DNA of 64,000 bases. Source: Psammoneis japonica (lineage: Eukaryota). Numbering within the stretch: the stretch's first letter is position 1; the number at the start of each line of letters is the position of its first letter. Shown in pieces: positions 3,100 to 57,435 of the stretch. The stretch is taken from contig QPGO01000062.1 of NCBI GenBank assembly GCA_008632985.1, positions 248,001 to 312,000 on the forward strand, written 5' to 3'. The translations under genes and the position numbers were made by a program. Below the pieces are notes generated by a model. It worked only from the letters and a program-made list of their open reading frames with translations. It was not told the origin of the DNA and made no database searches.

Positions 3100-5399
3100 G
3101 TGTCGTCACAACATGGGAAACACCGCGGAACGAATTTGTGTGGCAAAATATCTTGACAACAAAAACATTTCAGCTCATTGTGACCCACGCGAAATTTACA
3201 TAGGGACAATAGTCATTCCCGGTCATTTGTCACAGAAATCAATTTTGCCTTACGCACGACGAATGCCGTAAAGCTGGTACAAAGTCATTTTAGGAGCATT
3301 TCCTTTTTTTTCGCTCAATCGCAACGCACGCCTTGCTTCTGATTGACAGACAGGCGTTCCTCAGTTGCCGATGGCAGGTTACGTGGCGGTCACATGATGG
3401 TTGAATGCTTTGAAACAAATGCTGAAATGTGCACATTGGCAGCCATTCCACAATCATCACATTTCAAGTTGGTGACTGTCAAGCTGTTTTTGGTGTTGGG
3501 TGCTGGCACATGCTGCCTCCAAGCGTCGCTCTTGTTTCTTGTTGCAGGAGCAGCAGAGGCTTTTTTTCACACATCAGCCGTGCAAATGCACAAAACAAGT
3601 GTCTTTTGATGTCACCTTGTTGGTTGTGTCTTGGCAATGCAAAATGACCTCCACATGCCTCCTGTGAAGGAGCAAGGGGAGAGAACAAATCACGAAGTCG
3701 GGCGCAGAGAGATCCCCGAGAAGCCAGCGTGCAAGAAGGTGCGCACCTCTTTGTGAGTGCTTGCCAGCCACCAACCAGCAGCCACATGCACTGTGGTTAA
3801 ACTGGGCTTGCTGTCTGGACCCAGCCAAAGGGGGCAGTGATGCATGCTGTTGGGACAACATCTGGAACACCGAACAATCTGGTGTCGCACCTCCCATCAA
3901 GATTTTTTGAATTGCAGCCAGGCAATTTTTTTGTTCAATCCAAGACTGCGCCAATTTGTCCAACCCACACTTGTGAAATGTTCCATGACAAGCTTTTTCA
4001 TTCCTTGAGTCAACATTTTCTCTGCCACCTGCACAAGACTGCAATGTAGTTTGTTGTGTTCATGTCAATTCCTGAATGAAGTGTGCTGCCCACTTTCCCT
4101 GGATCAAAATTTCTTCAGTCATTCATGCATCAAGTTGGACTCTTCTTTGCTCCAAATTTTCTTCTCCCTGTCGCTGCCCTTCTTTGTTCCAATGCAATGC
4201 CCCTTGCATTGCTCTTCTTCATTTGTTTTTACATCACTGTGGCCCGGCTCTTCGCCAAGCGATTGCTGCACATTGTGATTGATGTTTGCTTTCCTTGCAT
4301 TGGGGCCTTTCTGTTTTTCCAACATGCTTCATTGGGGATGCAGTCTGATGGTCTCATTTGTCCTTGGTGCAAAAATTCTGGGTTCAGTTCCACATGCAGT
4401 CTTAGTTGGCATGTTGCCACCAACTGTCTCTGTTCTGTGGGGTCTGACCAAGTCTTTTGGTTGTCCGCACTGCCCTCTCCACTGCACTGCTTGTGCTGTT
4501 CTCCCTTTGCCAGGAACAACACAGTTGCACTCAAGAACCAAAATGTCCTCCCTGTCTGGCCAGACATTGGTTTCTTGGCTTCCTTGGGATGCCACCTCTG
4601 TTGCCTCTCTCTCAAGTCCAATGTCGACATGCCCAAACATCCTTGTCATTGCAAGTTCCCTTTTCCAACATCCCCCCTGCATCTCCAGAAGCAAGCTCCC
4701 TGCAAAGAGAAAGAGGGAGCTTCTCTTTGATGCTCTGCTGCTGTTTCAAATGCCGCCAATTCGTTTTCCCCTCCAGACGATGACTCATTTGGTGACAATG
4801 GCCATGATGCAATTTTTGGTTTTGCTGATGATGCCCCCCTTTTTGAAGTCCATTTGGATCCAGATCCCCTTTTTGAAGTCCATTTGGATCCAGATCCACC
4901 TCCTCCTGTTGGCTTTTCCTCCAATGGAAATGGTCTGCACCCTCCCACTGTCAGATGCTCTGGTCGATTGCACACTGCTGCCAATCTGGCCACTGCCAAT
5001 GCAGCTGCTGCCAATGATGCCCGCCAACAACTCGTCTTGTTTGCTGATGATGGTGTGTCTGCTGCCCTCAGAGAGGAAAGTCCTGTGGATGTTCTCAAGC
5101 TCATTGCAGTTGATTCTGTCAATGGTGCTTTGGGCCCTCCTTTGATGTCACATCCTGCAGAAGACACAGCTCCTCCTCCTGTCAGCATTGACTTGGCTGA
5201 TGTTTCCTTGTTTGACCCCAACAATCCATTTGGGCTGGCACGTGAGCTTGCCCCTGATGAAGACTTTGGCACCCCTCTGGTCCATTCGCCCAGCACTTTT
5301 GCACCCATGATTGAGTGCTCATCTCTGTTGTTGGTCAGGTGTTGCTGTCAACTTTGTCAACAAAGTCATGAGAATGGTCCATGAAGAGCATGCCGCAAA

Positions 5400-6700
5400 A
5401 AGATTTGATTTGACAAAGCCTCCCATTGCAGCTGCTGTGGCAATGAAGCAACTTGGGCAGCTGTCCCCTGTTCCCCAATGTCCCTCCCCCCCACACTGCT
5501 GTTGTGATGCTTGAGTGCAAAACAATCCAATGCAACAATGGAAGGATGGTCCCAAATTGCACCATTCTCCACCTTTCCCAGTGTGCAGTTTCACAGCGAG
5601 ACTCTGCAGGATCTGTTCACAGAGCCAGTCATCTACAATCTTTCAAAGTTGCAGGTGAATCCAAATGACATTTGATCACCTTGTTGGTTGCCTCCTTTTT
5701 GACAGCAATTTAGATCCTGATGCTGCAGCTGAGGGTGGTGACACTCGGTTTCCAGATTGTCCCATTCGCTGGTGACTGTTGACTCAAAGTCAAGACATGG
5801 CAGATGGAGAGTGGTTGCAACATTGTTCCGATGCCAAGGAGACTGCATCTGATTTCCATGTTCACTTTGTCAATCATTCCAACAAGACTGGAGTTAATGC
5901 AATCAATCCACACATGATGGAGCCTCTCAATTGCTCACTTGCAATGACTCAAGAAGGCGCTTGTCATGATTGCCATTGCTGGCATCCTCTTGGCTTTGTT
6001 CCAAATGTGGACAAGAAAGACAAGAGGAACAAAGGGGGCCATCTTGTCATTGCAAATCGTTGCTGCATTCTAAAGGCCGTTCTTTGTGGACTGCTCTGTT
6101 GCCAGGCCAATCCGCCCATTGGTCACACAATCATTGGAAAGGAGCACCAGTGTGTTGGGGCCACAATGCATTGCAACTCCCTGTTGGGTGTCATCCTTGG
6201 TCAAGAACAAATTTGTGGCAGAGCAATGAGTCAAAGCAAGACTAACAGACCATCTCACAACTGCCATGTGCCCTTCTCCCTTTCCGACAATTCTCTCCAT
6301 GCTTGCAAGTTCTTCAACCAAGTTTTCATTGAGTTGCTCACTCCATCTGCATTGGGTCAAGATCCCAAGGATGACAACAGCCACTGGCATCAGCATGTGA
6401 AACATGCATGAAGAAAGCACTGCATGATGACCACACAAAAAAGGCAGAGAACAAGCTTTCTGCTTCCCTCTGTCGGTGCATGAAAATGTGCACCGAAATG
6501 CCAAGGAAAGTCTTTGGACAGCTCACAGTTGACAACACTTGCTTTCCAATCAACACGGGTGACAACCCCTGTGGTGCATTTGGTGCGACGTGTGACAGTC
6601 TCCCGTGCAATGTGTGTGATGGGTGCAGGTGTCGTTCCTCAAATGATGGAGGTGACAGTTGGAGAGATGCCTGACAAACAGAAAGAGGAATGTGACCGGA
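5400..6700 (+). pseudogene. Decayed Plavaka-like (CMC/EnSpm-related) transposase
   Basis: HFVNHSNKTG...MEPLNCSLA...CWHPLGFVPN and DNTCFPINTGDNPCGAFGAT resemble Plavaka motifs (xDKT...EP...WRPLGYxP; NAF..xG.NP.GI..AT). Recognised from memory; several frameshifts. Confidence 0.55.
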
Positions 6701-8859
6701 TGGCCTTGGAATTGTTCTGCACACCAGCTTGGTGTTGTCCAGGTCAGAGGCGTGACTGTCCTTGATTGGTGTGAGTTGATGGCAGTCTCTCTGCCCTTGG
6801 TTGATTGATCTGTGATGAGAAGATGGGCAAGCCACTTGCACTCACCATTGTTGACCGCACTCCTGCAGGCAGAAAACTGCTTGAGAAGAGGTGTGATCTC
6901 CTTCCTTTGATGGCAAAAAGAAAAAAGCTGCCAACGGCTTTTTAAGGGGAAAGAAGCAACAAAATGAACAAATGACTGAATCACCTGACAGTGAACTCAA
7001 AGAAGAGGAGAAAGATGCTGTTGATGTGTCAACTCAACAACATGAAAGTGACCAAACCACTGCATCTGATGTGCCAACCCCAGCTGAGACGTGGTCTGAT
7101 GTCCTGTGCAACCCATCTGATGTCCAGCAGCATCATGCAATTGTGTGGTGCAACAATTGCATCGGGGTGCATGCAGTGGTGGAAGTGCTTTGATGAGCAT
7201 GGCAAATGCATTGAGTCTTTTGCTCCTCAAGCTGACAGAGATGTTGCCAACAAGCTGGATCTGCTGTGTGTGGTGATCCAAATGAGCAGCACAAAATTGT
7301 TTCATTGTTTGCTTCAAATCATGTTGTCCCGCATGTGAATGGTTGGAGGCCGGAAGCATGCCCAGGGATGAGACAAAAGTGTTCAATGTCATTTGTCATC
7401 ATGGGTCATGATGTGGATGATGATGTTGGAGCAATCTGAGTTGGAGGCATGGCACAGGGTGTGACACCTGCAGAACCCACACGGCAGTTGTTGAGAGTTT
7501 GGCAGTGGATTTTGGCAATTGTCCAACATGAGGACTTGTGTTGACAGCCAAGTGGTCTTGACCATTCCATGCCCTTGGATTGATCTGGGCCCGCCGTCTC
7601 TGCCCAGGGAGCTGCTGTGACAAAGTTGGGGGAACCGCTCATTGTTGGGGTGTTGTCCTGTGGGATCTCTTTGACTGGTTTGTCCTCCACTGGCATCTGT
7701 TGGGCTGGACTGTCACTGCACTTGGGAAACATCTTCTTGAGTTGGAATCAACCGAGGCAAGAATCTGGGGCTGGCTCACTTTTGTTGCAACACTTGCATC
7801 AAAACAGCTTGCAGAAAAAGCCCGTGGTTTTTTGGTTGGCTGTTTCTTCATGCAAACTGTGGACAGGCTGCCACATTTGGTCTTCCGAATTGGGAACCCA
7901 GCTGGTCTTTGATTGCCAAAGAGTTGATTTGCAGCAATTCATGGGGCAACAATGGCAAGGATGACAAAAGAGGCCAACAACAAAAATGCCCCTTGTTGAG
8001 CAGCTTGTGTGATTTTCTTCCTCAAAGGTGGCTTCAAAAGAAGCAATGGACGGTCCTTCCTTGGAAGGCTCCAGGCCCACAGGGCAAACACAAGTTTTGT
8101 TGTTGCCTGCTGTTGCATCATGTGCAGGAGCTTCCTTTGTCAAGGCAATGAAACAACTTGTCAAACAAGTTGAAGGACCCTGCCTGTGTCACAGGACAGT
8201 TCCGACACACACCCCCATGACACTCAATCTGGCAGATCCCATTCTTTCTGGTTCTTCTTCTTTTTGGGCATGGTTTTGACCCAGGGTTTCATTGAAGAGA
8301 GATCCTGTTCCTGGCTCAGTGGCTGTGGCATTGGCAATTGGCAGTTGTTGTCTCCAATGGAAATGGCCACCATTCGTTCCAACAGTGACTTGCACATTGG
8401 TCACGGATCGAAAGCACCCATTGCAAAGCAAGAAAGACAAAGAGTTGCATGTGTTGAGAAAGACATCTTCTGGCAACTGAATCTCTTTCTCTGTGACAGA
8501 GCTCATGTTGAGCTGTGCATCTGAAATGACCTCTGATTGAAAGGAGGAAACATTGGTGCCACATTCCACATTGTGCCCTTCCATCACGTGTTCCAAGATG
8601 AGTCAACATTTTCTGCTCTTGTGAAAGGCACTCCTGTGCATTTTGTCCATCATGACACTCTTCCAGATCCAGAAGCACCAAGAACCTTGTAGATCATTTG
8701 GAAACACACAACAATCATTGGATCTTAGCTTCATTTCCTCATGACAATGGCATCCCAAGCTCATGTTGTGATGCTCATTTCTTAAATTGCAAGAACATGC
8801 AAGGTCACCAACCGCCAGCCTGGCAAAGCAAGCATCACCATGGAAGACAACAAGGTTGC

Positions 8860-11110
8860 CGAATTCAATGCCAAATTGTTTGGCATGTGCACCAGCATCA
8901 TGACAATGACCACACACCACGTTTGGGCAAGGAACTGGGTCTCTTTCAAGCCCTTCTTCATGAGCATGGTCCCATGAAATCCACTGAGTTGGTGTCTCAA
9001 CTGAGGAAGCCAAGTCCATGACAGGTGCAGGAGCGGTGCTTGCAAATGATGGGAGCTGCCTTCTCAAATGCAGCGAAGCAGTCAACACATTTTGCCTGCC
9101 ATCAGAACATGCCTTGCTCCTGCACATGGATGAGGGCATTGCCACCATGATTCGAGTGATCAACGAAAATGCTGCCTGTCAGTGTCCACTCTTAAAGCTG
9201 GCCTGTGAAAAGAATGGAGGAATCATGTGAGGCAACATGAAAGGAACAACTCAAGAAACAGCCAGGCTCTTTTTCAAGCCCGTGTGCAAAATCTTGTTGC
9301 CCCAAAGGATTGATTTGTCCCCCAAGCTCAAGGCTGCATTGAGCAGCAAGGAGAAGGAGGGCAGCAGCAGTGGTGCCAAGGTTGCTGACTTGGGCTGTGG
9401 ATGCACAAGCCAAAATGGAGATTGAAGGGGCCAAGCTGACCAATGCCGAAGCACGCTTGTGCAATTCCCATCAATGGGTCAAGCTGGGAGAAGAGGCAAC
9501 ACATGATGTTGTGACAGTCTTTGGCACCTTTTGCAACATGCACAATCCTCAGGGCATGGCTGTGACAGAGATCCCTGCATCCATGTGAGAATGACACTCT
9601 CCACTAAAACCCCCCTCACACTGGGAGAATCAAAAGCATGGTGAAAACAGGGTTGAAGATCTTCCAGTGCAGAAGAGAAGTGGTGAGAGGAGTCATGACT
9701 GCCAGACAGGCAGACATCAAAAAAGAAACAACAAATCCGTTTCTGCACCCAACACCACAAAATCCAAATCATCCACTCGTAAAACCAGCCCAGTGAGCCA
9801 TCAACATGAAGAGACCGGGAGATTGTTCAGAGCATGAGCAGGACAGCAAGCCAGGAGGTCTGCTGGGATGATGCCAGAGCACACTGTTGGGAGGCCTGCA
9901 AGACTGAGCCCAATCTAAGAAGAAATTGGGTGGGCGACCGGAACAGCGCCAATTTGGTGGAAGCAAGTTGCCAGGGAGGAGCAGCCAAGGCAACAACTGA
10001 CAACAACTCCAAGCAGTGCAATCCCCCACAATGGGGGGCTTGCAGCATTGGCAGGGTTGAGGTGAGCACAGTCCAAGACTGTGGATCCATTTGCCTCCTT
10101 TGAGGTGTGCAGAGAAGCCATCTGCACACGCGGTGCACAGACAGGAGCTTGCAATGTGAAATGTGTTGATGATCATCAAGGGAGTGCATTTTGATTGCAG
10201 CAATTGCCTTGTTCACAATGCATGCAATGTGTCTTGGCGGGTTGGTGGAGCAGACACAGCTGGGGGTCTGCATGGGGTGCCGGTTGCAGCAGCAGTTGGC
10301 AAAGTGCCATCTTGAGCTAATGCCAGGGACAGAGCAGCCTGCATTGGTGACAGTTTTGCTTGCCAGAACAATGCCATTGTCAAACGGGTGCCATTTGTGG
10401 GAGGCATCTTGAAGTTTCATTGCACTCAAAGAAATCAAACTGCACACAGGGCAGTTGATCTTGGATCTTTGATGGCACACCTTGTGCAGGATTGCTGTGC
10501 AAGCAGAGTGCATGCCATGCCACATGCAAAACATTGGCTGATGACACCAACAAAAGTGGCTGGATGAACAATGATGGATGTGTTGTCACGTTGACAGAGT
10601 GAAAGTGGGTGCATTGCAAACGCTCACTGCCAGTGTCAACAATGATGTGCTGAAAAGGTGTTTTGTTGTTTTGTGATGTGATGTGGCTGCTGGCAAGTGA
10701 AAGAGAGGCTCATGACCTGACAGAGATCCCTGCATCTGTTGTGCAGGAATGGCCCACTCCACCAACAGGCTGGTGTGGCTGAGGAGATTTTCAAGGCTCT
10801 CAAACCTGGAGGCATGGCGCTCATGATGATTGAACCATTTTTGAGCTTCAGCAATGCCGCCAAGGATTGCCTTGCAAACTTTGGGGTGCTGCATGTCAGA
10901 GCTGGAGGTTGTGCTTTTGTGCTCCATGTGGCATGACTGGAGACATGAGAAAGGATGGGCTGAGCACGAAGGTGGGGACAGAGCATTGCACTGAGATTTT
11001 CAAAGAAAAAGTCAGATTTTTGTCCATGGGTGCTTTTGGTGCCAATGCTGAAGGCAGCAAGGCTCTAAACTCCAATGATTTTCATCTCTTGCTGGCAACC
11101 AGGCAGAAGC
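8860..11110 (+). pseudogene. Decayed class I SAM-dependent methyltransferase (Rv2258c-like: wHTH plus MTase), split by a ~1.1 kb insertion
   Basis: RLGKELGLFQAL..HGPMKSTEL; FCLPSEHALLL; TARLFFKPVCK; motif I KVADLGCG (~9377-9402); C-terminal EIFKALKPGG..MIEP (~10785-10840). Stops and frameshifts present. 19-bp direct repeat at 9563-9581 and 10718-10736. Confidence 0.6.
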
Positions 11111-13080
11111 AGAGCTGCTCAAAGTGATCCTTTTTATGCTGTGTGCTCAAGGAGTGGGTCAAAAGCCTTCGCACATGTCACAATCATCTTGTCCATCAAA
11201 CGAACCGCATGATCACTCCTCCTGTCATCATCGGCACAGCAAGAGCGACTGTTGCCATCATTGCCATCACCACCATGAGCCCGCCCGAATCTCTCATCAT
11301 TGTCATTGTGCCAAAGATGATTGCCTTTGTCGTCATTGCCGTCGTTGTTGTTGCCACTGTTCAGCGGCGGCTGTCCCATGCTCTTGACCACATTGGCATT
11401 GATGAGATAAAACAAAAAGCACGAAATGGCACAGCCGCCACCTTCGGCCACCTTGCACTGGTTGTTTTTACAAAAGTGACTCCCACAGGCCAAAAATGTC
11501 AGCATGATGAACACAGCTGCCCAAATGCACATCCACAACAACCAACGCTCAAATGTCAGTTTGCTGAATTTGCAACAACAGGCCAAAAACAAGACCAAAA
11601 AGGAAACAAAGGCACAGTCACCATGAGTTCTGCGGCAGCAGGATTGTTCAGTGCACAAACAAACAAGCATGGGGAACTCAACCAATGCCAGTCATCAAGC
11701 AGAGACTCCAGCTCTGTTGTGACTCCTCCCATGGAGGGATGTCATGTGCCATGCAATGGATTGAGCTCCAGCAGTCAGTGAGAAATTGAACAGAGATGTG
11801 CACACGTGTGGTTCTTGGAAACGGAGGCACTGAGGACAGTGGTGAGACATGCCCAACTTGGCAGACTCAAACTGCTGTGACAAGGTGATTGACATGGCAA
11901 AGAAGTTGGAGAATGACAAATGACATTGCAAGGCACTAGAAACTGACAGCAGAAAATGCCAAACCTGCAAAGCACACGGTGCAGGAAAAAGGGGAATCGG
12001 CTGAGAGGAGCCAAGGATGGAGTGCAAGGATGGGATCATGAAGTGCAATGAACTGCACAAGTGGTTGACAAAAGACCAAGATGACAACAAAGGATTTGGT
12101 GCCTGACTCAAGAGGAATGGAGACAAGAGAAGGCAAACTTGTTGTCTGAGGAGGCAGAGAAGAAAAGCGCAAGAGAGAGGAGAAGAGGAAGGAGAGAGAC
12201 GGCGGGTGGGCCGCACCAATGGGAGAGGACCTGCCCTTGCAGCCAGTGGCTGCCAGCAACAGCATGGAGGCCATTGCAGCCATGGCAACAAATCAAACTG
12301 GTGTGCAAACATGAAGTGCAGCAAACAACAAAATCCAAAACAAGGCAAAAACAATGAGGAAAACTGCAAGACAGTTGTCAGCCAACACAACAAAGTGCCA
12401 ATGGCAGTTCTTGCAACATTTGCTTTTGGCAAAGCAACGAAAAGAGAAACAATGCAGAAAGAAGTGACAGGCAAAGATGGTGGATTGTGAGTGGCAAGAG
12501 ATGTGATGAAGGTGTGAGGAACAGCAAATGACAAAAAGGGTTGAGATTGAAGCTGTGGGTGAGAATGTTCGTGCTTCCAAGTGGGGCACAATTTAGAGAC
12601 AAGAAACTCACAAACTTGCTTGGTTCTCAACTAACATTCAAAGGAAGAAATGGCTCATGAGTTCACAATGATCTGGGATTGGAGTCAAGAAACACCCAGA
12701 TTGTGACAGGTGGTCAAACCCAGAGTGTTGGGCACCCCAGATGAAGTTTGGGGGGAAGGACAAAGCTGCTCTCTCTCAAGGCTGGGGGTGGTGCCCACCC
12801 CGCTGCTTTGTTGATGTTTGCTGTTTGTGCTTTTGCCACCTGCCAAAGCTTGGGCTGGACAGTGATGACCCACCAGGTTGCCCAGGCTTCAGAAAAAAAA
12901 AAATGGATCCTGTCAGGTTCATTCATCGTCGAAAAGCAAGCAAGACGGGAAGTTCTGACCTTCTGTCCTGCGTCCGGTGGTGTATGTGGAGCTCCAAGAT
13001 CCGCGAGAAAGATCGCATTGCGCATTATTGCGACGACCGTCCATTTCTTGTGTTGCATCCAACAAAGAGAGTTTATGACC

Positions 13081-18715: not shown

Positions 18716-19109
18716 GGTGGATGATGATGCTTACAACAAGACAAAGACGGGTTCAGGTCTTTATGAGTATATGAGAAGGTTCACTGGAGAAACGGGTTTG
18801 GTTTGTGATGTATTGAGTATTGTGTTCTCTGATTTTTTGTGCATCTCCTTCTCTGCGTGACAACAATGACGCAACTCGCGCGCAAACTCTCCATCTCCAT
18901 CCGAAGAATCCAGCCGTTTGTCGCGTGCGTGGTCGTGCTTTTATCCTATTTAATTTTGTCGCAGGATACATCGGTATCCTTGCAAACGCATCTTTCAATG
19001 TTTTAAAATTGGATTATTTTAAATGATAGTCCACGTCAACTATTGATGCTAGAGAACTTTAGCGATTATTTCGTGGGATACACATTGAACGTTAATGGCC
19101 TTAATTGAT

Positions 19110-43237: not shown

Positions 43238-43289
43238 TCATTATCAGCGAATCTAAGATTTTTATATTGCAGTTGGTAGTCTAAGGTTG

Positions 43290-44739: not shown

Positions 44740-45049
44740 ATTCACACTGCTGAAATAATGAAACTATAGACATTGGGTTGACACAACAAAAACCGTGTTT
44801 CCCATTACAGCAGCTCTAGCACTCCTGTTTTGAAGCATTTCTTGTTTGTCATGAGAACACAAAAAAGCCTGGCGTCGAGGAAACACCAACTTTTCTTCGC
44901 GAAGGGCTGTGAACCAACGTAGCATGCTCGTCGAAAACCCATTCACAGCTCTTTCTTTACGTGCAAAAGGAAGAGTGAGAGTGTTTCGAGGTCACAATAA
45001 GCAGTTCGTAGCTAGCTTTCTCTGTGCTACTTGATGGAAGGTCAGTCAG

Positions 45050-48000: not shown

Positions 48001-51000
48001 CACATGTTTGTAAAGAGCCGCATGGACGCGTGACACATGGGGAGGAGTGCAACATGCAGCCACCAACAAGAGCCAATGCATCACGGCGATGTGTTGCAGC
48101 CTTTAAATGTCACAAAGGGCGTGACAAAATGGCCTTTTGTCTGCATGCACACTGCAAGTGGAGTCACCATGATGCTCTTGCTCCACTTCTTCACACTCAC
48201 AAAAATCTTCATCATTTGATGACTTCCTCCATTTCAAGTCCTGTGCTTTGGCAGAGAGCGATGTCTGCTGAAGTTTCAAAAATTGTGCTGGCTGAGCCTT
48301 TTGAATGCTCATCAATCAACCACCTGCTTGGCACTTTGAGTGTCTTTTTGCAGCTTGCACACTCTGTGGCCAAGACAAGTCTGCCTCTTGCTGCCATGCC
48401 AAAGAGTGTGAAAGAAAGAAAAAAAGATGTCGCACCTCACCATCTGGTTTTGCTGGTTTTTCATCTTTCTTTCTTGCATTTGGGTGAAGCACATTTGCTC
48501 ATGTTGCACCTCAGATTGCTCGTCAACAATGTGGCCCCAGCAGCAGGTGGTGGGTTGTCAAGAAGGGCTGACTTTCCTCCAAATGCTTTGCAGCATCTTT
48601 GTCGTCATGACAATTGCCACTTCTTGGTCATGATGCCTGCCCCCATCTCCTGCCACAAAACACTTGGGGCTTGGAAGCATTCTCTGCATTGTCACTTGAT
48701 GAGCACCCATTGCCCAGATTTGGAAGAGTTTTCACATTTGCTTGAGACCTTGTTTTCCCATCCTGTGGTGACGGTGTGTCATGGGACATTTTTGGTGCCA
48801 TCTGTTGCCCCCTCTGCTCCTTTGTTTCTGTCAAGAAAATGGCTTTTGAACCCTGTGCCACCACTTGCCTGGGCAAGGCCTCTTTTGTGGCACAACTCTT
48901 CCACACAAGCAAAAATCAACCTCATGACCATCTGGCACATGTCCAGGCTCTTGTTGTTGATTTGCACACTTTGTGACCACCCACAATTTTCATTGTTTTT
49001 TCAATCATGTGTCAGTCAGTCATGGAAGTGATTGCACAAGTTGACATTCTGTCTGGGTGGATGTGCACCATGTTGAGTGCACTGTTTCACAACTCAGACA
49101 TTGTGCAGTCATGTCAGGCCCACACCGCCAAACATGCTCATGTGCCACCACATTCTTTGCAATGTGCTGGTTTCTGCACATCTCAATGGATGTGGCACAC
49201 TCAGCCACAATCTGGCAACACTGGTTTGGACAACAGCTGTTGGCATGCTCGCAGCCCTGCTGACACAGAGTGCTTGTTGCAAGAGCTGGCTTCAATGAAT
49301 TGTGTCATTGCCAGCTAGTCCTGCACCTTTTTAAAGTCATGGCACACAGTTCCTGACCACAAATGGCCAGCGAAAGTGTCCGTCCATGCTGCTTTGTGAT
49401 TTGCACATTGCCAACAAAGCTGCCCCCATCATTGCAACAAAAAATTCTGGTGCTTGGAGCCCTGCAGAGAGAACAGCCTGCATGCTCATGCACACATGCC
49501 AAAAGCTTTGGATCTGTCACACTTCATCCGTTGGGGCGTCAGCATCACTGACTGCAGTGTTGGTTAAACTTTGCTGTCCTTGAAGTTGCCCCACTTGTCA
49601 CAGGCAGCACTTTCTGAAGTTTGATCTCAATCTCAGAAGCATGGGTTGCTTTGAAATGCCCAGTTGCTCGAAACAATGCAAACTGGCTCAAGTCATGCTC
49701 CCATCAATCCAGCCAGTGTGCTGGTGTGTCCACAGGGTTTGCAGCCCCCCTCTCCCCCTGTGTGTGTGTGTGTGTGTGTGTGTGGCTCCTGAGGAGGTGC
49801 CCCAGCAAGTCATTTTTGCCCCCCCCCCCCTGACAACTCCTGGGATTGTCCCACTTTTTCAAAAACAAAATGAACATGGCCATCAATGGAATTTTTTGGC
49901 AAGCTTCAAAAGACATTGAGTCAATTTGGTCACTGCAAATGACCACAGCAAGAGCAAGGAGGGGGCTGCTCCCACTTTTGTTTTGATGACATCGTGCAAA
50001 AAACACCACAAGAAACAAAAAGCTTGTGCCTCTTCATGTCCTCTTTGGCAAGTGTGTCACAATCCAAGCAATGAGTCCATGTGTGACACACACTCCACAC
50101 CAGACCTTTGAGGCATTTCTTGTCACAGTGTTTGGCACAATGAGAAAGCTCTGAAGTTGAGCGAAAATTCTGAAGCAGCAGCTGAAGAAGGCACATTGTT
50201 GTGAGCAAAGATGCTTGTTGCACTCAGAGCACCTGTGCCCCATGGCTCCAATGGCATTTTTCAAGACTTGCCAGGTGTTGCTTGCATTTGGTGCTGAGCA
50301 CTGATGCTGCTGCAACCCAGTCCCACAGGTGCAGCTTGGCTGTTGAAAACTGATTTTGCTGGTTCCTCCCACAGCAGCAGAAACTCTGGGCACAAAAAAA
50401 AGCAAGGGTGTGTGTGGAGCCCTGGTGAGATTGCACAGCATGAACACAAGTGCTGGGCTTTGGTGCTTGCCACTCAAATTGTTGCCATTTGGAAATGTTG
50501 TGCAGTCAATTGGAAACATGCACTCAAGGGGGGCATCAATGTGCAAAATGACTGTGCCCAGTTCTTGCCTTTGCAGACATCACATGCATTGTCACATTGT
50601 CTTGGTCTCTTGTTGCTTCCAGGTGTTGTGCTTGGCATGCTGTGGTCATGCAAACTTTCCTGGCTCCAGCATCAACACATGGCTGAAATGCAAAAGCACA
50701 AGCCTCAGCTGTTGACTCACAGCATGTTTGTTTTGTGTTGCCTTGATTGACTCACAAGGGCTCAGCTCACTGTGCTGCATTTTCTGCACATTTGTTGCAT
50801 GTTGCTCACTTGCAAGCTCCTCAAGGGTGTTGCTTCTTTGTGCTTGGTTTTGCTTGACCTAAAATCACATGTGATGCACTGCTGAACAGAAGCTGTGGTT
50901 GTCAGCACATGGTTTGTGCACTCGTTCTTTTTTGTTTGTTGTCTTCTTTTGTGCACAATTTGTTCAGACAGTTGTTGAGCTGCCAAATTGCAAATGAACA

Positions 51001-53261
51001 AACCACTGCTGTCTCAAAAAATTCGAGGGGCATGCTGGCATTTGTGTGCTGTGCTCATGTTTTTTGAACATGTGGCACTTTTTTTCTTCGTTGTTTGAGC
51101 TTCATTGTGCATCTTGTGGGGTTGCAAATGCTGTCATGATGGCAACTGCATTGTGCAGCTGCAGAGATCAGCTCATGTTGCGGGCATTTTGCGGTCATGA
51201 GTTCACGGCTTGGAGCTGTCAGACCTTTTTTTTGTTCCTCTGGTTGGGTGCAGTGCAGTTGTGCACAATGACCACACAACAGCACCACATCACAAGCCAT
51301 GCTGGAAGAGCCACAGACTCTGCAGATGTGTTGTTTCTGCTGCAATTTTCTCTGTCTCTTTCTGCAAGACCAACATTTTGTTTCTTGCATCATCTGTCAT
51401 TGCCAGTTGCCTGCAGCAAAACAGCAGCACAATTTTCAGTCAGCCACAAATTGCAACAGATGGAAGCAAATAATCTGTTGCAGCTCTTGTTGTGTTTCTG
51501 TGCAGCTCAATGTTTTCCAACCCTTTGTTGGCTTTTGTTGCTTCACTTCTCTTCAGTTGTTTGCACATTGAAGAGCACAAGCAAATGAGAAGGCCCAGTG
51601 CTCTTCTCTTGCTTGGTGCTTCCACATTGTGCTTTGTGCCTGCATCAACAAGTTGAGGGCTTTGTGCCCTTCCAGCAGCTGGTGCTTTTGTCATGGCTGC
51701 CTTCTGCAAAATGATTGTCTGCAGCAAAAAGCACAAAGGCCTTGCACCCTTCTTGCAACAAATGGCACTCAGATCCTTCATCAGCAGGTGGGAAAAGAGC
51801 GTGCCTTTTCTGACCTCAACTCAGATGGCATGGTGACATGTTCCCAGCTTTGGACACAGCTCCAGCTGTGAACAAACAGCTTGGAGACACCACTCCCTTG
51901 TGATTTGTTTTGCTTTCTTGATGTGCTGGTGTGTGACACACACTTTTGTCTCATTGTGTGCAGATTGAAGACAGTGGGTTTGGGTGTCGCAGAGAATGTC
52001 TGTGGCAAGAGGATGCTCTCATTGCTGTGCTTGAGTGCAACACAACCCACTTGACTTGCAGTTGTGGCAGGTGCAACAATGCTGCATGCCTGGTGCAACC
52101 AGCTGAGAGCTTTTCTTGTGGTTGAGTGTGGCCTCAACTGCCACAGCTTGGGCCCCATTTGCAGCACCACACATCAATGCACTCCAGCCCTGGGTGGGAC
52201 TCCTTGTGACATGGGGGCTCACAGAATTTTGTGTGCAAGTTCTGCAGATCATGTGCTGGATGACAAGCACATTTGCCCTTGACACCCAAACAAACAACCA
52301 AGTTTGTTGTGCAATTGCTGCACCTCTTCACACTCTGGGTTTTTGAAAATCTGCCTGCACGGCACATTGCACAAAAAATCAAAGTGGTTGAATGGATTGC
52401 ACAAAAAATGTTTGCACTGCAACACAATGCAAAATGCCACCAAAAAGTCTCACAAGAAAAGTTTGTTTGCATGATGCGCAGTGCATCAGAAAAAATGTCA
52501 GTGCATCACAGCCCAGCAATGGCAGGAGGCCCAACCATTTTTGTTGTGAGGGGTTGTTGCTCTGCAACCCAAAACTCAGGGCTCACTCTGCCTTCTCCCA
52601 ATTCTGGGCTGTTTTCTCCACAGCTTTTTCAGAGTGTCTTGCAAGCTGGAAGAGCCAGCACCACTGTCTGTGTTTGACGTGTTGCAGCCCCAGGTGGGAG
52701 CTTGCAGTGCTGATGTGTGACACAATTTTTTTTGTCATCCGTTGCATGTTTCGCACACACATTTCTACGTGTGATCTTGCAAAAAATTGTTCCAGACTTG
52801 CTGTTTTGCGAAACCTCAGATGTTTTGTTCAACAAAATCATGGGAACACAAATGTGCCAGGTGCATTCTTTGACATGTGAAGAATGTGCCTGGCTGAGCA
52901 AAAGACACTGCACTTCAATCATGGACGAGTTTGTGCGTTTGCAAAATTTCCTCATTTTCTGTTGGTGATCATTGACACACACCAATTGCTCAACAATTTT
53001 GCTTTGGAGCTTGCACGTAGAATTCCATGGGCCCAATGTCACATGGATTTCCACCTGCATCTGGAGCGCATCGTTTTCCCATCACATGTGCCACTTGCAA
53101 GTTGCTGCTGCCAAAATGTCATCATTGACACAAGCACTTCTTTGTCATCTCTTTGTTGAAAGTTGCCACACATTGTGCACTTGATGCGATCAGATGGTTG
53201 TTGGCCGCTTGAGCAATTGGAGATGTGCACAACTGTTTTGCTGCAGCAGTCTGCCCCACCC
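45050..53261. mobile_element. TpA-depleted block 4, left part: unclassified decayed repeats
   Basis: About 15 TA in about 8 kb by eye. No recognisable family. Contains a ~100-bp direct repeat at 47757-47859 and 48047-48149. Confidence 0.65.
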
Positions 53262-53501
53262 TGACAGGATTTGAACAAGATTTTAGTTTGTCACACACAA
53301 TTGCTTGTGCTCTCAGTTCCGTGCGAGACGCGCAATGCAGTTTGGCTTTTGAGCCACATGGCTCACAAGAACAACAACAGCGCCAGCACCAACATCAACA
53401 ACACCAGTCTTTTGGCTCCTGTGATGGTGTCTGCATGGAGACTCATCTGCCATTTAGAAAGCAACAAGGAGTCATTGTTTTCTTCCACCCAGTCATCTTC
53501 A
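53262..53501 (+). repeat. 5' LTR (alignable part)
   Basis: Aligns with 56596-56842. True 3' end uncertain. Confidence 0.85.
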
Positions 53502-54810
53502 ATTTCTGTCAGATTGACAATCTCACTCATTTTCATCCATTGAGCATTCATCATCATCGAAAATCTTTGACAACACACACCATTGGCGGTGGAAGTGCAT
53601 GTCCACCTTCTTTGCTGCCACCTCAACAATTCTGACTGGCCACCCGAATCCCACGAGTTGTGTGGTCACTTCGTTGGCATTGCCGAACACGTTGGTCATC
53701 ACATGACATTCAAGATTCTTTCTGACGATGCTCAGAAGATTCTCTGCCGCTCAAATGTGCATTCCGCCTGTGATCCGTCCACTCCCAACCTGTGTCTTGA
53801 TCCTCCTGATGAGGAATCTGCTGAACCCGTCATCAAATCCCAACATGACTCCAAGGATTCACCAGATTCTTCAGATGGAGGGGTGATCAGGATGCCCAAA
53901 ATGCCGGTCTTTGACCCCAAGGACATCATTGGATGCACCTTCCTGCCTCATGAAGCCACAAGAGGATGGACAATGCCACAGAGCTCGTGTTGTCAAAGCC
54001 GTTGAGGACCATGGTGACTGGAAAATTGGAGACAACCCCAAACTGGTCAAGTTCATTTGCTCTGTCAACAATGGTGGGTGCGAGGAAGTCCCAGCCTGCA
54101 ATGACATCATGCACCACATCAAGCAAGAAGACGAGGACACTGCCCTCTGGAAACTCCGATGCATGGCATCGCAAAAAGGACCATTGCAACCTCATGATCC
54201 ATCTTGGAAAGGCTCAAGCTACAATGTCATGCTTGAATGGGAGAATGGGGAGATCATCACGTCTGAACCCCTTGCCATCATTGCCAAGGACGATCCTGTC
54301 ACCTGCGCCATTTGCACACGCGAGCACAGTTTGCTTGAGACCAATGGCTGGAAACGCTTGTTCCGGACTGCAGCTCTGTGCCAGAAGAAGCTGTTCCACA
54401 TGGCCAATCAAGCCAAGTTGCGCTCCTTTTGCACTGTGCCACAGTGCAAGTGCGGGCATGAAGTGCCCCGGGACTGCAAGCACGCCTTGGTCCTTGATGA
54501 GCGCAATGGCAACCGCAAGTGGGGAGATGCAACAGAGCACGAGATGACTCAGCTTGATGAGTGTGAGGTCTTCCATGACTGTGGACATTGCAAGGATTCC
54601 AGCGCTCCACAAGGACACAAGAAGATTCGGGTGCATCTCATCTGCGACGTTGAACATGACAGATGGCACAAAGCAAGGCTTGTTGTCAACACGGACACCT
54701 CACAGATGCCCTGTCAACAGTGTCCATTCCAGAGTGGTGTCTCTCCACGGCCTGCGAATGATGATCTTCCCAGCCAAACTCAAAGAACTGGAGACTTGGG
54801 CTGCCAACAT

Positions 54811-55203
54811 GACGGGTTCCAGTCCTAGGTGGGACTCCGTGTGACATTGGGCCCGTAGAATTCTACGTGCGAGCTCCGTAGTACGAGAATTTAATTAATG
54901 TATACATTTATCTTCAACATCAAATAAACTGCCAAGTTTGTGGTACAATTATGCCTCTTGCCACTCGACGTTTTTGCAAATGCGCCTGCCCTACGCGATT
55001 CTTAAGACATTATAGAATCGCGCTGTAACAAAAAATGTCAAAAGTTGTTGGACGGATCGCTCAATAAGTGTGCCGTAAAATGACACAAAATATCGAAAAA
55101 ATCACGTAGAAATCTACGTGCGCGACATACGACGTGGTTCAAAAAACTGTCGATGTCACAGTTCAGTAGTGCGAGGTCCCACCTGCTAGACCTGGAACGC
55201 GTC
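54811..55203. mobile_element. MITE inserted in the copia RT
   Basis: Imperfect TIRs: gacgggttccagtcctaggtgggac versus reverse complement gacgcgttccaggtctagcaggtgggac. TSD is ACAT (54807-54810 and 55204-55207), or CA if the ends are 1 bp longer. Removing it restores WAANIGGACLEA. Confidence 0.9.
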
Positions 55204-56595
55204 ACATTGGGGGTGCCTGTCTTGAAGCTGCAACCAAGGAGAAACTGCACATTGCAGCAGGCCCCAAATCAGGTGAGCTGGAAGGACACATCCTTGTCAT
55301 CCACAAGGCCTCACACGGACTTCGCAGCTCTGGCCTCAGATGGCATGAACACTTTGCCAATTGCTTGCATGCCGAGGGCTTCTTCCTGTGCAAAGCCAAA
55401 CCCAACATCTGGCTGTGTGGGAGTGATGACCACTGCAAGCATGTGGCAGTGTGTGTGGATGACCTGGCCTTTGCCGTGAAGGAACCCCAGGCTTTTGCAG
55501 ACACTCTCATGTGGAGAAGTGCAAGTTCAAGCTCAAGGGCACTGGACCATTGGAGTTCTGTCTTGGTTGCAACTTCACCTGCGATCCAGATGGCGCCCTG
55601 TGCCTTGCTCCTCATGAGTGCATTGAGTCAAGGTTGAAAACTGTGCATGCCTCTTTGGAGAGAAGCCCCACACTGATGTGCTTTCAACCCTTGACAAGGG
55701 AGACCACCCTGAGCTCAACACCTCCGAATTGCTCAAACCGGAGGGCATCCACCAACTCCAATCCTTGATTGGTTCCCTGCAATGGGCTGTGTCTCTTGGT
55801 CACATTGACATCACTGCAGCTGTCATGCCCTGTGCAGCTTCTGTGCAGCACCCCATCAAGGCCACCCAGACCGCGCCAAATGCATCCGCGGATTCCTCTC
55901 CAAGATGCGTCATGGTGCCCTCCGAGTGTGTGCCGAGGAGCCCAGCTGTTCGGACCTTCCCAAGCCCGTGTGTGACTGGGCCCAATCTGTGCATGGGGAG
56001 GCAGAAGAGCTGCTCCAGCAAGATGCACCCTGGCCACTTGGCAAATTTGTCACCATGACACACTGCGTTGATGCGAACTTGTTCCATTTCATGCTCCTCG
56101 CTGGACGCTCTGTCACCGGCATCCTTCATTTCCTCAACAAGTTCCCGGCTAATTGGTTCTCCAAGAAACAAGCAACAGTTGAGACTGCTGCACATGGACC
56201 TGAGTTTGTTGCCACAAGGATGTGCGTTGAGCAGATCATTGATCTGCACATCACTTTACGTTGCCTTGGCATCCCCATTCATGAAACATGTCACATGTTT
56301 GGGGACAACAAGTCGGTTGTGGACAGCGCTGCCACCCCGCACTCCCAAGTTGCACAAGTGACACACCACCCTCTCATTCCATCATGCACGTGAGGCAATT
56401 GCTTCCAGTTTCCTCAAGTTTCATTTCATCGAAGGTTCCCGCAACCCTGCTGACATCCTCAGCAAGCACTGGCTGGGGTTGCTCCCAGGTCTGGAACCTC
56501 CTTCGTCCTCTGATGTTTTGGAACTTTGATCCCGAGGCTTTCAACCAATCTGACCTTGAATCCATTGCTGTCAACCCCTCAAGCAAACTGGGGAG

Positions 56596-56842
56596 TGACA
56601 GGATTTGAACAAGATTTTAGCTCATCACACACAATTGTGTGTGCTCTCAGTTCCGCGCGCGATGCTCGATGCAGTTTGCTTTCGAGCCACACGGCTCACA
56701 AGAACAATGACAGCAGCATTGACATCAATGACACCAGTCTTTTGGCTCCTGTGACAGTCTCTGCATGGAGACTCATCTGCTGTTTAGACAGCAGTGAGGA
56801 GTTGTTGTTTTCTTGACCCAGTCTTCCACCCAGTCATCTTCA
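56596..56842 (+). repeat. 3' LTR (alignable part)
   Basis: Follows the PPT-like tract and aligns with 53262-53501. Confidence 0.85.
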
Positions 56843-57435
56843 AGAATTTCCATGTCACACCCCCCTTTGAGATTCTCTTTGCATCTGTGGATGCCTCAAA
56901 GCTCTGCACAGCAGTTGAGAGCCACTCTTGAAATTCTGCACACTTCTCCCCTTGTGAGGTGGGTGCACACACCCACATCTTTTTTCTGCACCAGCTCTCT
57001 CTGGCAGTGATGTCTCACAGCTGAAGTCACCACCAAGAATGAAAATGTTCTTTTTTTGGGCCTCTTCAGGATTGCCCAAATTGCTTTTTAAAGCAGCTTT
57101 TCTTGTGAAGCTTTTCCAAGGCCCTTTTTGCATGCAATCACAGTGTAGAGGAACCACTGCATGGCTCATGTGTTGGTTCTTGTCACTCACATGCAGCCTT
57201 GGCCTTGCCTTGCCTTCCTACAGTACAACCATGAAATGTCTGTCAGTTCCACGTCTTGTCCACGTCAGTGGTTCGCTCGCTCGCGCCTCAGCGCACACGA
57301 ACATAACATGCTCGTCGTGAGATTGCAGTGGGTTTCGATTTTGTGAGGTGACCATTGAATCAGCTGCATCCACCGTCTTTCTTTTGCGTTCGGCAGTGTG
57401 TGGCCGAAACAAGTTAGCTGTAGGAACGTTAAGGC

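What the first reader, a model, noticed from the sequence alone, without database searches (positions are those of the whole stretch)
3390..57200. Candidate RIP-like genome defence: both-strand TpA->TpG/CpA (A:T->G:C) hypermutation confined to repeat blocks
Seen: four sharply bounded blocks (about 3390-12900, 19110-19985, 36200-38800 and 45050-57200; about 25 kb in total) have only a few TA per kb, reduced CG and a large TG/CA excess, while neighbouring genes are normal. Every recognisable element in them is dead: copia pol, gag, a Plavaka-like transposase and a methyltransferase. Established: 5mC deamination (diatoms methylate TE CpGs via DNMT5) gives CG->TG/CA, and fungal RIP gives CA->TA, which creates TA. 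Neither removes TA. Inference: a second, region-targeted process converts A to G in TpA on both DNA strands. Candidate mechanisms are a TadA/ADAT-like DNA adenine deaminase (TadA-derived editors favour TA), deamination of a modified adenine, or Pol eta-type error-prone repair (WA->WG) recruited to methylated DNA. I know of no description of such a system, but I cannot search the literature.
Basis: partly seen in the sequence, partly recalled or inferred. Interest (0 to 1): 0.97.

Follow-up and report, generated by a model that had tools for sequence, protein, structure and literature searches.

The report
TA-destroying hypermutation of diatom transposons
In this diatom genome, dead transposon DNA has had almost every TA (and most CG) rewritten to TG or CA, which points to an undescribed A:T-to-G:C mutator aimed at mobile DNA, the chemical mirror image of fungal RIP.

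Summary
Blocks 3381-12982, 19103-19985, 36175-38845 and 45029-57145 hold 2.4 TA/kb against 41.2 in the flanks, and 14.6 CG/kb against 54.3. The sum TA+CG+TG+CA is unchanged (243 vs 242/kb).

The direction was shown against 36 intact copia polyproteins. Of 29 conserved Tyr, 15 are Cys, 7 His and 1 Tyr. Of 30 conserved Arg, 18 are His/Cys/Trp/stop. Other transitions and transversions stay at the level of intact copies.

The two LTRs of one element differ by 8 TG<->CA double differences, so the same sites were hit independently.

TA loss and CG loss are separable. An independent metagenome contig (L055) has 3 TA in 2766 bp but keeps 29 of 33 conserved Arg.

New here is a context hierarchy: RTAY > RTAR/YTAY > YTAR. 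Strand choice per site is random. Edges are sharp to about 100 bp. A DNA transposon (Plavaka-like) is hit as well as copia.

Pol-eta (WA), ADAR-type and APOBEC-type signatures do not fit. Ten literature searches found no description. Raw reads and the whole genome could not be checked, so the enzyme, the targeting and the repeat dependence are inferred.

The parts
3381..12982 (.). Hypermutated block 1 (9.6 kb): 25 TA left, none of them RTAY. The first ~400 bp are TA-free but still CG-rich.
5281..6987 (+). Dead Plavaka-like DNA-transposase remnant. P0241 aligns in one tblastn HSP over 5320-6894 (525 codons), with 8 in-frame stops; Tyr 0%, Cys 7.2%, His 5.3%.
   Evidence: 59 homologs, best E 3.3e-29; homologs P0244 and P0248 match Pfam Plavaka PF18759, E 8.3e-5 and 3.5e-6
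19103..19985 (.). Block 2, partly mutated (8 TA left: 7 YTAR, 1 mixed), just upstream of the HSP90 gene. Identity unknown.
   Evidence: Pfam 0 families
36175..38845 (.). Block 3 (2.7 kb), 4 TA left. Identity unknown. Contains an internal duplicate, 37579-37717 / 37715-37851.
45029..53261 (.). Block 4, left part (8.2 kb), unidentified hypermutated DNA. The internal duplicate 47757-47865 / 48047-48155 differs by 5 TG<->CA doubles, 2 CG/TG and 1 other transition in 109 aligned bases.
   Evidence: Pfam 0 families; 386-aa ORF 47871-49028: no homolog among longer proteins
53262..53502 (+). 5' LTR of the copia-type element.
53622..54811 (+). Copia pol remnant, first part (about residues 1016-1398 of P0032).
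54826..55187 (.). Unmutated island: a later insertion (gap in the pol match 54812-55205) that interrupts pol at residue 1398|1398. 24 TA (6 of them RTAY) and 25 CG. Terminal inverted repeats read by eye.
55206..56530 (+). Copia pol remnant, second part (residues ~1398-1836). Includes the ORF 55170-55634 with a weak RVT_2 match.
   Evidence: (RVT_2 E 0.0041)
56596..56843 (+). 3' LTR. Against the 5' LTR: 237 aligned bases, 207 identical; 8 TG<->CA doubles, 5 CG/TG or CG/CA, 4 other transitions, 5 transversions.
56844..57145 (.). Right end of block 4, hypermutated, unidentified.

Best explanation
The blocks are dead transposable-element DNA in a diatom nuclear genome. Identified parts are a copia-type LTR retrotransposon and a Plavaka-like DNA transposon; the rest is unidentified. 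Two separable transition processes have driven all pyrimidine-purine steps to TG/CA. (1) CG->TG/CA is the expected decay of methylated CpG. (2) TA->TG/CA is a hypermutation specific for the TA step of duplex DNA. Its preference is RTAY, then RTAR/YTAY, then YTAR. At each site one of the two strands is hit at random. Each copy, and each LTR of one copy, is hit on its own. It stops within about 100 bp of the element edge and leaves all other substitutions at background. I read it as an enzyme-driven mutator directed at transposons that acts on double-stranded element DNA in the nucleus after insertion. The most likely chemistry is deamination of the adenine of TA (A->I, read as G); an equivalent chemistry on the T of the other strand is possible. 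Shown: direction, specificity, sequence context, independence between copies, sharp edges, and separability from CpG loss. Inferred: that an enzyme does it, which enzyme, how elements are recognised (homology, chromatin or small RNA), and when in the life cycle.
For: Mass balance: TA falls by 38.8/kb and CG by 39.7/kb, while TG+CA rises by 80.2/kb. G+C and AA/TT are unchanged.

Polarity: at 524 positions conserved in at least 70% of at least 20 intact copia homologs, Tyr (29) reads C15, H7, Y1 and five other residues. Arg (30) reads R12, H8, C8, W1, stop 1. Gly is kept at 40/45, Trp 10/10, Pro 30/34.

Control: in the window, 33 of 486 conserved positions (6.8%) show TA-class changes and 32 of 486 (6.6%) CG-class changes. 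In 68 other loci pooled, the figures are 295 of 47,501 (0.62%) and 419 of 47,501 (0.88%). Other transitions are 1.9% vs 2.6%, and transversions 6.8% vs 6.6%.

Independent hits: the LTR pair has 8 TG<->CA doubles in 237 aligned bases. Duplicate D4 has 5 in 109. Three flank repeat pairs have 0 in 741 aligned bases with 98 mismatches.

Three-copy metagenome families show the three-state pattern (CA,TA,TG) at 15 and 6 sites.

Context: 0 RTAY sites survive in any block, against 507 in the flanks. Survival is 3.4% for mixed sites and 26% for YTAR. In six partly mutated loci RTAY stands at 0.29 of the intact frequency, mixed at 0.89 and YTAR at 0.81. Conserved Tyr preceded by a purine is mutated in 67 of 83 cases; preceded by a pyrimidine, in 18 of 61. 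Both outcomes (Cys and His) occur in each class.

Strand choice: TG:CA is 1104:1017, 311:292, 1165:1151 and 202:212, with runs-test z from -0.6 to +2.1.

Speed and specificity: L055 keeps 1 of 31 conserved Tyr but 29 of 33 Arg, and is 86% identical at the other conserved positions.

A DNA transposon is hit too, so reverse transcription is not required.

Edges: TA classes and CG are normal by 100-250 bp outside the blocks.
Against: So a base-calling artefact, the copy number of these elements and the state of active copies are untested for this genome.

Blocks 2, 3 and 45029-53261 have no identified element.

A nested 0.36-kb insertion is wholly unmutated. The process is therefore not continuous over everything inside a block, or the insertion is very young or too short.

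Sharp edges with no leakage would also follow if elements were mutated before insertion.

I know of no natural enzyme that converts A:T to G:C at TA in duplex DNA. This is recall, backed only by ten searches that found none.

The codon classification gives priority to the TA and CG classes when several ancestral codons are possible. The same rule was applied to the control.
Confidence: 0.55

Rival explanations
1. Editing before insertion. A host factor attacks extrachromosomal double-stranded element DNA (retrotransposon cDNA, or excised DNA transposons) at TA steps, and the dead product is then integrated. This would resemble APOBEC3-edited proviruses, but with A:T->G:C changes on both strands.
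For: Edges are sharp with no leakage beyond about 100 bp. Copies of one family in a metagenome are mutated to different degrees, with conserved Tyr kept in 25-61%. The two LTRs differ, as expected if the linear DNA was hit. The nested insertion is untouched. L003 shows a gradient of TA loss along the element, TA o/e 0.11 to 0.52.
Against: All five sub-blocks of the window are saturated alike, with 0 RTAY left in any. They include at least two unrelated element classes and 12 kb of contiguous mixed material, which fits cumulative action in place better than one hit per insertion. No host-derived unmutated spacers are seen inside the blocks. A Plavaka-like cut-and-paste element has only a brief extrachromosomal phase (inference).
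Confidence: 0.22
2. Passive decay. In silent chromatin the T or A of TA carries a base modification (for example an oxidised thymine or a methylated adenine) that miscodes at a raised rate. TA would then erode slowly, as methylated CpG does, without a dedicated mutator.
For: TA loss coincides with CpG loss in the window. The RTAY preference could be the site preference of a modifying enzyme.
Against: L055 has lost 30 of 31 conserved Tyr, yet it is closer to the family consensus at other conserved positions (86%) than the other loci printed (0.70-0.84), and it keeps 29 of 33 Arg. In the window's copia, other transitions are not raised (1.9% vs 2.6%). The rate excess would have to be far above that of 5mC (inference, order of 100-fold or more). 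The unmutated nested insertion lies inside the same chromatin block.
Confidence: 0.13
3. Assembly or base-calling artefact. Modified bases at CG and TA in silenced DNA are systematically miscalled, and the true genome keeps TA and CG.
For: It could not be excluded directly, because reads were not available.
Against: The same signature occurs in independent public assemblies. L055 has 3 TA in 2766 bp and is only about 73% identical in nucleotides to the window's element. Partial states occur in at least six other contigs. Tyr-poor proteins P0104, P0092 and P0001 come from other sources. The elements also carry stops, truncations and a nested insertion. A symmetric modification read from both strands should give mixed consensus calls including CG and TA, not clean TG or CA (inference).
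Confidence: 0.04
4. Native composition. These elements evolved to avoid TA and CG under selection, for example to escape a host nuclease, and were never mutated in bulk.
For: None specific. Dinucleotide avoidance is known in viruses (recalled).
Against: Conserved, functionally constrained Tyr and Arg are replaced. There are in-frame stops. The two LTRs of one element carry TG where the other has CA. Sister copies keep TA at the same sites.
Confidence: 0.01

Closest known systems
Repeat-induced point mutation (RIP) of Neurospora and other ascomycetes
   Same: It kills transposons by dense transitions that are limited to the element, with sharp edges. Each copy is hit on its own. It acts on DNA transposons as well as retroelements.
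   Different: RIP is C:G->T:A, mainly CpA->TpA, so it creates TA and lowers G+C. Here TA is destroyed, the change is A:T->G:C, and G+C is unchanged. RIP tracts are strand-biased per event (recalled); here strand choice per site is random. Dependence on repeats, a premeiotic stage and a RID-type enzyme are untested. Diatom DNMT4 is reported as related to RID, with unknown function (PMC9998398, passages seen).
TpCpG-targeted hypermutation of transposons in basidiomycetes (Microbotryum, rusts; recalled, with search listings)
   Same: The CG part here is strongest in TCG/CGA contexts (survival 0.13-0.20, against 0.52 for CCGC and GCGC).
   Different: It has no TA component. The context effect here may only reflect easier melting of A+T-flanked CpG.
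Decay of methylated CpG in silenced transposons (vertebrates, and diatoms with CpG-methylated elements: PMC2806351, PMC5124317, PMC9998398, passages seen)
   Same: CG->TG/CA is shown polarised: Arg->His/Cys/Trp/stop at 18 of 30 positions. It occurs alone in other loci (L048, L009, L010 and L012: CG o/e 0.10-0.24 with TA 0.49-0.57).
   Different: It cannot remove TA. TA loss occurs without Arg loss in L055, L003, P0092 and P0104.
APOBEC3 editing of retroviral and retrotransposon cDNA (PMC4866542, abstract seen)
   Same: Hypermutated dead copies sit in the genome and the degree varies per copy.
   Different: APOBEC3 is C->U on minus-strand single-stranded DNA, giving strand-asymmetric G->A, and acts on retroelements only. 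Here the change is A:T->G:C, both strands are hit equally, and a DNA transposon is hit as well.
ADAR-type (and fungal ADAT-type) A-to-I hyperediting
   Same: The A->G outcome, and a preference for T/U 5' of the edited A.
   Different: Those enzymes act on RNA and favour a 3' G (recalled). Here TAG-type sites (YTAR) are the poorest targets and TAY with a 5' purine the best. Both strands of the DNA carry changes with no strand clusters.

Membership tests
Fungal RIP | C:G->T:A transitions, mostly at CpA, that raise TpA and lower G+C | tested here: not met
   TA is 2.4/kb against 41.2/kb and G+C is unchanged. The polarised changes are TA->TG/CA and CG->TG/CA only.
Fungal RIP | Triggered by sequence duplication (repeats above a length and identity threshold) | not testable with these tools
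   No genome is held. Self-comparison of the window finds almost no repeats between blocks. Multi-copy families in metagenomes are hit copy by copy, which is compatible but not a test.
Fungal RIP | Needs a RID/DNMT-type enzyme and acts before meiosis | not testable with these tools
   No candidate gene lies in the window. Diatom DNMT4 is related to RID, with unknown function (PMC9998398, passages).
Methyl-CpG deamination decay | CG->TG/CA with TG/CA gain, limited to methylated DNA | tested here: inconclusive
   Direction and balance are met. Methylation itself cannot be seen in the sequence.
APOBEC3-type cDNA editing | C->U on one strand (G->A on the plus strand), retroelements only | tested here: not met
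   C:G->T:A transitions outside CG are 2 of 486 conserved positions (all non-TA/CG transitions 9 of 486, 1.9% vs 2.6% in the control). The strands are symmetric. A Plavaka-like DNA transposon is hit.
ADAR-type RNA hyperediting fixed by retrotransposition | A->G clusters on the transcribed strand, 3' G favoured, retroelements only | tested here: not met
   Tyr->Cys and Tyr->His both occur (15 and 7). There are no strand runs. YTAR, which includes TAG, survives best. A DNA transposon is hit. The ADAR neighbour preferences are recalled.
Pol-eta type WA->WG error-prone repair | A->G at both AA and TA | tested here: not met
   AA is 76.4 vs 78.8/kb and TT 83.1 vs 82.4/kb. Lys->Arg is 2 of 36 and Asn->Ser 0 of 12, against Tyr->Cys 15 of 29.
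TadA/ADAT-like adenine deaminase acting on DNA | Single-strand motif T-A-C/Y, independent of the base 5' of T | tested here: inconclusive
   TAY is favoured over TAR. However, Y-TAY Tyr codons are mutated in only 18 of 61 cases against 67 of 83 for R-TAY, and they give His as often as Cys. That points to recognition of duplex RTAY. The TadA motif is recalled.
Copia-type (Ty1/copia) LTR retrotransposon (for 53262-56843) | LTR pair plus pol with an RVT_2-type reverse transcriptase, homologous to full-length copia polyproteins | tested here: met
   LTR pair. 232 homologs, all 120 listed carrying PF07727. tblastn covers residues ~1016-1836 of 1845. Gag, protease and integrase are missing from this copy.
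Plavaka-like DNA transposon (for 5281-6987) | Match to the Plavaka transposase family (PF18759) | tested here: inconclusive
   The window ORF itself has no Pfam hit. Two of the 8 homologs scanned match PF18759, one of them above the curated cut-off (26.9 vs 26.3 bits), over the region aligned to the window. No terminal repeats were found.

The most novel reading that the evidence does not exclude
Diatoms have a natural genome-defence mutator that recognises the duplex tetranucleotide RTAY (more loosely, any TA) in transposon DNA and converts A:T to G:C on either strand until the element has no TA left. It would be the chemical mirror image of fungal RIP and the first natural duplex-DNA A-to-G mutator. 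It probably works beside CpG methylation, and it is seen in several environmental populations.
Probability: 0.45. Interest if true: 0.95.

Novelty: new variant of a known kind. Interest (0 to 1): 0.88.

Why it matters
Hypermutation directed at transposons is known as C-to-T chemistry (RIP, APOBEC). An A:T-to-G:C counterpart with a defined duplex motif would be a new class of genome defence in a major group of marine primary producers.

It would also explain why diatom element remnants escape domain searches. They lose all Tyr codons and both TA-containing stop codons, which gives long false ORFs.

The enzyme behind it would interest base-editing work as a natural activity that changes A:T pairs in double-stranded DNA.

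The signature found here (RTAY first, YTAR last, TG/CA discordance between copies) makes the question directly testable in any diatom genome.

Tried and rejected
- Whole genome: not held.
- Earlier findings of this scan: four look-ups gave nothing relevant.
- Pfam on 217 block ORFs gave only chance-level hits plus a weak RVT_2 match. Pfam on 13 long block ORFs gave one chance-level hit.
- Pfam on read-through frames gave 0 families. Gag and methyltransferase are therefore unverified.
- The 386-aa ORF 47871-49028 had no homolog among longer proteins. 'Near' and 'shorter' lengths were not searched.
- Terminal inverted repeats for block 1: none convincing among 202 short pairs.
- No target-site duplication of the copia element could be read from the alignment.
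- Nucleotide-level polarisation of L003 against L001 and L002 showed an A>G/T>C excess (97 of 196 private changes). At 77-81% identity the contexts were too noisy to use.
- Majority polarisation in three-copy families was confounded where two copies were mutated. It was replaced by pattern counts.
- One enzyme for both CG and TA with a 5'-T rule was considered, because TCG is the most depleted CG context. It was set aside because TC outside CG is not mutated (no Ser->Phe/Leu in 30 conserved Ser) and because TA loss occurs without Arg loss.
- Literature: ten searches, plus passages of PMC9998398, PMC2806351, PMC3239186, PMC5124317 and 10.1101/2025.10.24.684338, and the abstract of PMC2873906. 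None describes TA->TG/CA hypermutation.


Full report
**1. Observation**

In 1-kb windows four stretches stand out.
- Inside them, TA o/e is 0.00-0.09, CG o/e 0.04-0.46, TG 1.6-2.0 and CA 1.55-2.3.
- G+C (0.47-0.53) is like the flanks.
- The flanks have TA 0.28-0.92 and CG 0.78-1.25.

From the TA positions the edges are 3381-12982, 19103-19985 (weaker), 36175-38845 and 45029-57145. Block 4 contains a TA-normal island at 54826-55187.

Pooled figures for 24,911 block bp against 39,089 flank bp:

| Dinucleotide | Blocks (per kb) | Flanks (per kb) |
|---|---|---|
| TA | 2.4 | 41.2 |
| CG | 14.6 | 54.3 |
| TG | 115.6 | 72.1 |
| CA | 110.6 | 73.9 |
| Sum of the four YR steps | 243.1 | 241.5 |
| AA | 76.4 | 78.8 |
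| TT | 83.1 | 82.4 |

- Sixty TA are present where about 1026 are expected.
- The loss of TA (38.8/kb) plus CG (39.7/kb) equals the gain of TG+CA (80.2/kb). This is what a wholesale conversion predicts.

**2. Organism and surroundings**

- The flanking ORFs are ordinary eukaryotic genes: HSP90, a mitochondrial carrier, PPR proteins, sulfotransferases and an amino-acid transporter.
- The named homologs of the HSP90 that I read in the listing are diatoms, at 73-76% identity: Phaeodactylum, Seminavis, Fistulifera, Nitzschia, Mayamaea, Attheya, a Bacillariaceae MAG and Chaetoceros. Some other names are cut off in the listing. The best unnamed hits reach 80%.
- The window is therefore from a diatom that is not among those named species.
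- No whole genome is held.

**3. What the blocks contain**

Pfam found almost nothing.
- On 217 stop-to-stop ORFs of at least 70 aa, the only meaningful hit was a weak RVT_2 match at 55170-55634 (E 0.0041).
- On read-through six-frame translations of blocks 1-3 and 45029-53262 there were 0 families in 24 frames.

Direct homology searches did better.

Copia element:
- The RVT_2 ORF has 232 homologs. Many are full-length copia polyproteins of about 1880 aa.
- tblastn places a pol remnant at 53622-54811 and 55206-56530.
- LTRs lie at 53262-53502 and 56596-56843.
- The TA-normal island interrupts pol exactly at residue 1398|1398. It is therefore a later insertion that escaped mutation.

Plavaka-like element:
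- ORF 5776-6408 has 59 homologs, best E 3.3e-29.
- Two of the 8 homologs scanned match Pfam Plavaka transposase.
- The remnant spans 5281-6987. P0241 aligns in one HSP over 5320-6894 (525 codons), with 8 in-frame stops and no Tyr. Cys is 7.2% and His 5.3%; homologs have Tyr 1.3-4.7%.

Not verified or not identified:
- Blocks 2, 3 and 45029-53261 remain unidentified. The 386-aa ORF there has no homolog among longer proteins.
- Long ORFs are expected by chance in TA-free DNA, because TAA and TAG cannot occur (inference).

**4. Direction of change**

I compared the window's copia with 36 intact polyproteins, at 524 positions conserved in at least 70% of at least 20 homologs.
- Conserved Tyr (29) reads C15, H7, F2, and one each of W, Y, Q, V, L.
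- Conserved Arg (30) reads R12, H8, C8, W1, stop 1.
- Gly is kept at 40/45, Trp at 10/10 and Pro at 30/34.

Codon by codon:

| Class | Window (of 486 conserved positions) | 68 other loci pooled (of 47,501) |
|---|---|---|
| TA class | 33 (6.8%) | 295 (0.62%) |
| CG class | 32 (6.6%) | 419 (0.88%) |
| Other transitions | 9 (1.9%) | 2.6% |
| Transversions | 33 (6.8%) | 6.6% |

- Eleven loci with signs of Tyr loss were left out of the pool: L055, L075, L003, L078, L061, L074, L073, L058, L060, L079 and L062.
- Only the TA and CG classes are raised. Apart from these, the element is no more decayed than intact family members.
- The classification favours the TA and CG classes when several ancestral codons are possible. 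The same rule was used for the control.

**5. Independent hits on copies**

- The two LTRs, identical at insertion by the biology of LTR elements (established knowledge), differ at 30 of 237 aligned columns. There are 8 TG<->CA double differences, 5 CG/TG or CG/CA, 4 other transitions and 5 transversions.
- An internal duplicate in block 4 shows 5 such doubles in 109 aligned bases. A duplicate in block 3 shows 1 in 137.
- Three repeat pairs in the flanks show none in 741 aligned bases with 98 mismatches.
- The same ancestral palindromic step was therefore resolved to TG in one copy and CA in the other.

**6. The same signature elsewhere, and separability from CpG loss**

Among the 120 listed copia homologs, three are Tyr-poor: P0104, P0092 and P0001. 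At conserved Tyr they carry Cys or His, while Arg is kept at 26/33, 14/15 and 46/51.

A scan of metagenome contigs returned 79 loci.
- L055 is only about 73% identical in nucleotides to the window's element.
- It has 3 TA in 2766 bp and CG o/e 0.44.
- It keeps 1 of 31 conserved Tyr (C8, H13) but 29 of 33 Arg.
- It is 86% identical at the other conserved positions, more than the other loci printed (0.70-0.84).
- L003, L075, L078, L061, L074 and L073 are partly mutated, with Tyr kept in 25-45%.
- The median locus keeps 83%, and 14 of 79 keep less than 70%.
- L048, L009, L010 and L012 show CG loss alone.

TA loss is therefore a fast, specific process, distinct from CpG decay. It is present in independent assemblies, which argues against an artefact of this assembly.

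**7. Sequence context (new here)**

In the window:
- The 60 surviving TA are TTAA 14, CTAA 13, TTAG 12 and 21 others.
- None is RTAY in any of the five sub-blocks, against 507 RTAY in the flanks.
- Survival is 0% for RTAY, 3.4% for RTAR/YTAY and 26% for YTAR.

In the six partly mutated loci (20,182 bp), compared with 68 unmutated ones (376,745 bp), RTAY is at 0.29, mixed at 0.89 and YTAR at 0.81.

At conserved Tyr codons of those loci:
- A preceding purine goes with mutation in 67 of 83 cases (C28, H39).
- A preceding pyrimidine goes with mutation in 18 of 61 cases (C9, H9).
- A single-strand 'TAY' rule would predict mostly Cys for the second class and a higher rate. The data fit recognition of the duplex site, with either strand hit.

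Two three-copy families at about 90% identity give the three-state pattern (CA,TA,TG) at 15 and 6 sites. In family 1, 56% of RTAY copy-sites are mutated, against 29% of mixed and 26% of YTAR.

For CG, survival is lowest in TCG/CGA contexts (0.13-0.20) and highest in CCGC/GCGC (0.52). This is compatible with easier deamination in A+T-flanked CpG (inference).

**8. Strand choice and edges**

- TG:CA is close to 1:1 in every block, and the order of TG and CA is not clustered (runs-test z from -0.6 to +2.1). The flanks are slightly clustered.
- There are therefore no long one-strand tracts.
- Outside the blocks, RTAY is 6.2/kb within 100 bp (5 sites) and 10-14/kb from 100 bp outward. CG is normal throughout.

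**9. Mechanism**

Shown:
- A TA-specific A:T->G:C hypermutation acts on element DNA of both transposon classes.
- It acts per copy, with an RTAY-first hierarchy and random strand choice.
- It has sharp limits, and it is superimposed on CpG decay.

Inferred:
- An enzyme acts on duplex DNA, most simply by adenine deamination. Because TA is a palindrome, this cannot be told apart from chemistry on the T of the other strand.
- It is aimed at transposons by homology, chromatin or small RNA.

Not fitting:
- Pol-eta WA, because AA is untouched.
- ADAR- or fungal ADAT-type editing, because TAR sites are the poorest targets, there are no strand clusters, and a DNA transposon is hit.
- APOBEC-type editing, because the base and the strand pattern are wrong.

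Action in place against editing before insertion:
- Uniform saturation of at least two unrelated elements and 12 kb of contiguous material favours cumulative action in place.
- The lack of leakage, the variable degree between copies and the untouched nested insertion keep editing before insertion alive as a rival.

Candidate gene families named in print are leads only. They are diatom DNMT4, related to RID (PMC9998398, passages), and stramenopile-specific deaminase architectures (PMC3239186, passages).

**10. Novelty and limits**

- Ten full-text searches and passages of six papers gave no description of TA->TG/CA hypermutation in diatoms or elsewhere.
- Subscription journals and closed supplements were not covered.
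- The artefact test for this strain, repeat dependence, methylation state and timing therefore remain open.

Noticed in passing
window 54812-55205: A ~0.36-0.39 kb insertion interrupts the copia pol exactly at residue 1398. It has imperfect terminal inverted repeats (read by eye around 54815-54836 and 55176-55198). TA and CG are normal (24 TA, 25 CG). It looks like a small non-autonomous DNA element that arrived after the hypermutation.
   Followed up: partly
proteins P0104 and P0185: The Tyr-poor copia protein P0104 and an HSP90 homolog (P0185, 76% identical to the window's HSP90) are both listed with a longest contig of 11,093 bp from the same source type. A hypermutated copia may sit beside HSP90 in another diatom, as block 2 does here. 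Shared synteny or shared insertion was not tested.
   Followed up: no
protein P0001: This 1384-aa copia polyprotein from a 46.8-kb contig shows a broader A->G pattern: Tyr->Arg 5, His->Arg 4, Lys->Arg 5, Asp->Gly 5, Ile->Val 11, Thr->Ala 9, with Arg kept at 46 of 51. It may be a heavier or different mode of the same process.
   Followed up: partly
locus L003 1-2363: TA depletion forms a gradient along the element (TA o/e 0.11, 0.24, 0.31, 0.52, 0.51 in 500-bp steps) while CG stays near 1.
   Followed up: partly
window 3381-3800: The first ~400 bp of block 1 have no TA but still carry many CG. The TA and CG edges do not coincide exactly here.
   Followed up: no
window 32423-33177: A 105/111-bp tandem repeat array (6 or more units, 67-94% alike) lies inside the ORF 32080-33672, which carries a helicase-associated (HA) domain.
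   Followed up: no
window 33609-33924 and 38766-39095: Two stretches of ~320 bp are 73% alike. One lies after the HA-domain gene and the other at the right edge of block 3. They may be a dispersed short element.
   Followed up: no
loci L048, L009, L010, L012: These copia loci from metagenomes have strong CG depletion (o/e 0.10-0.24) but ordinary TA (0.49-0.57). CpG decay occurs without the TA process in some hosts.
   Followed up: partly
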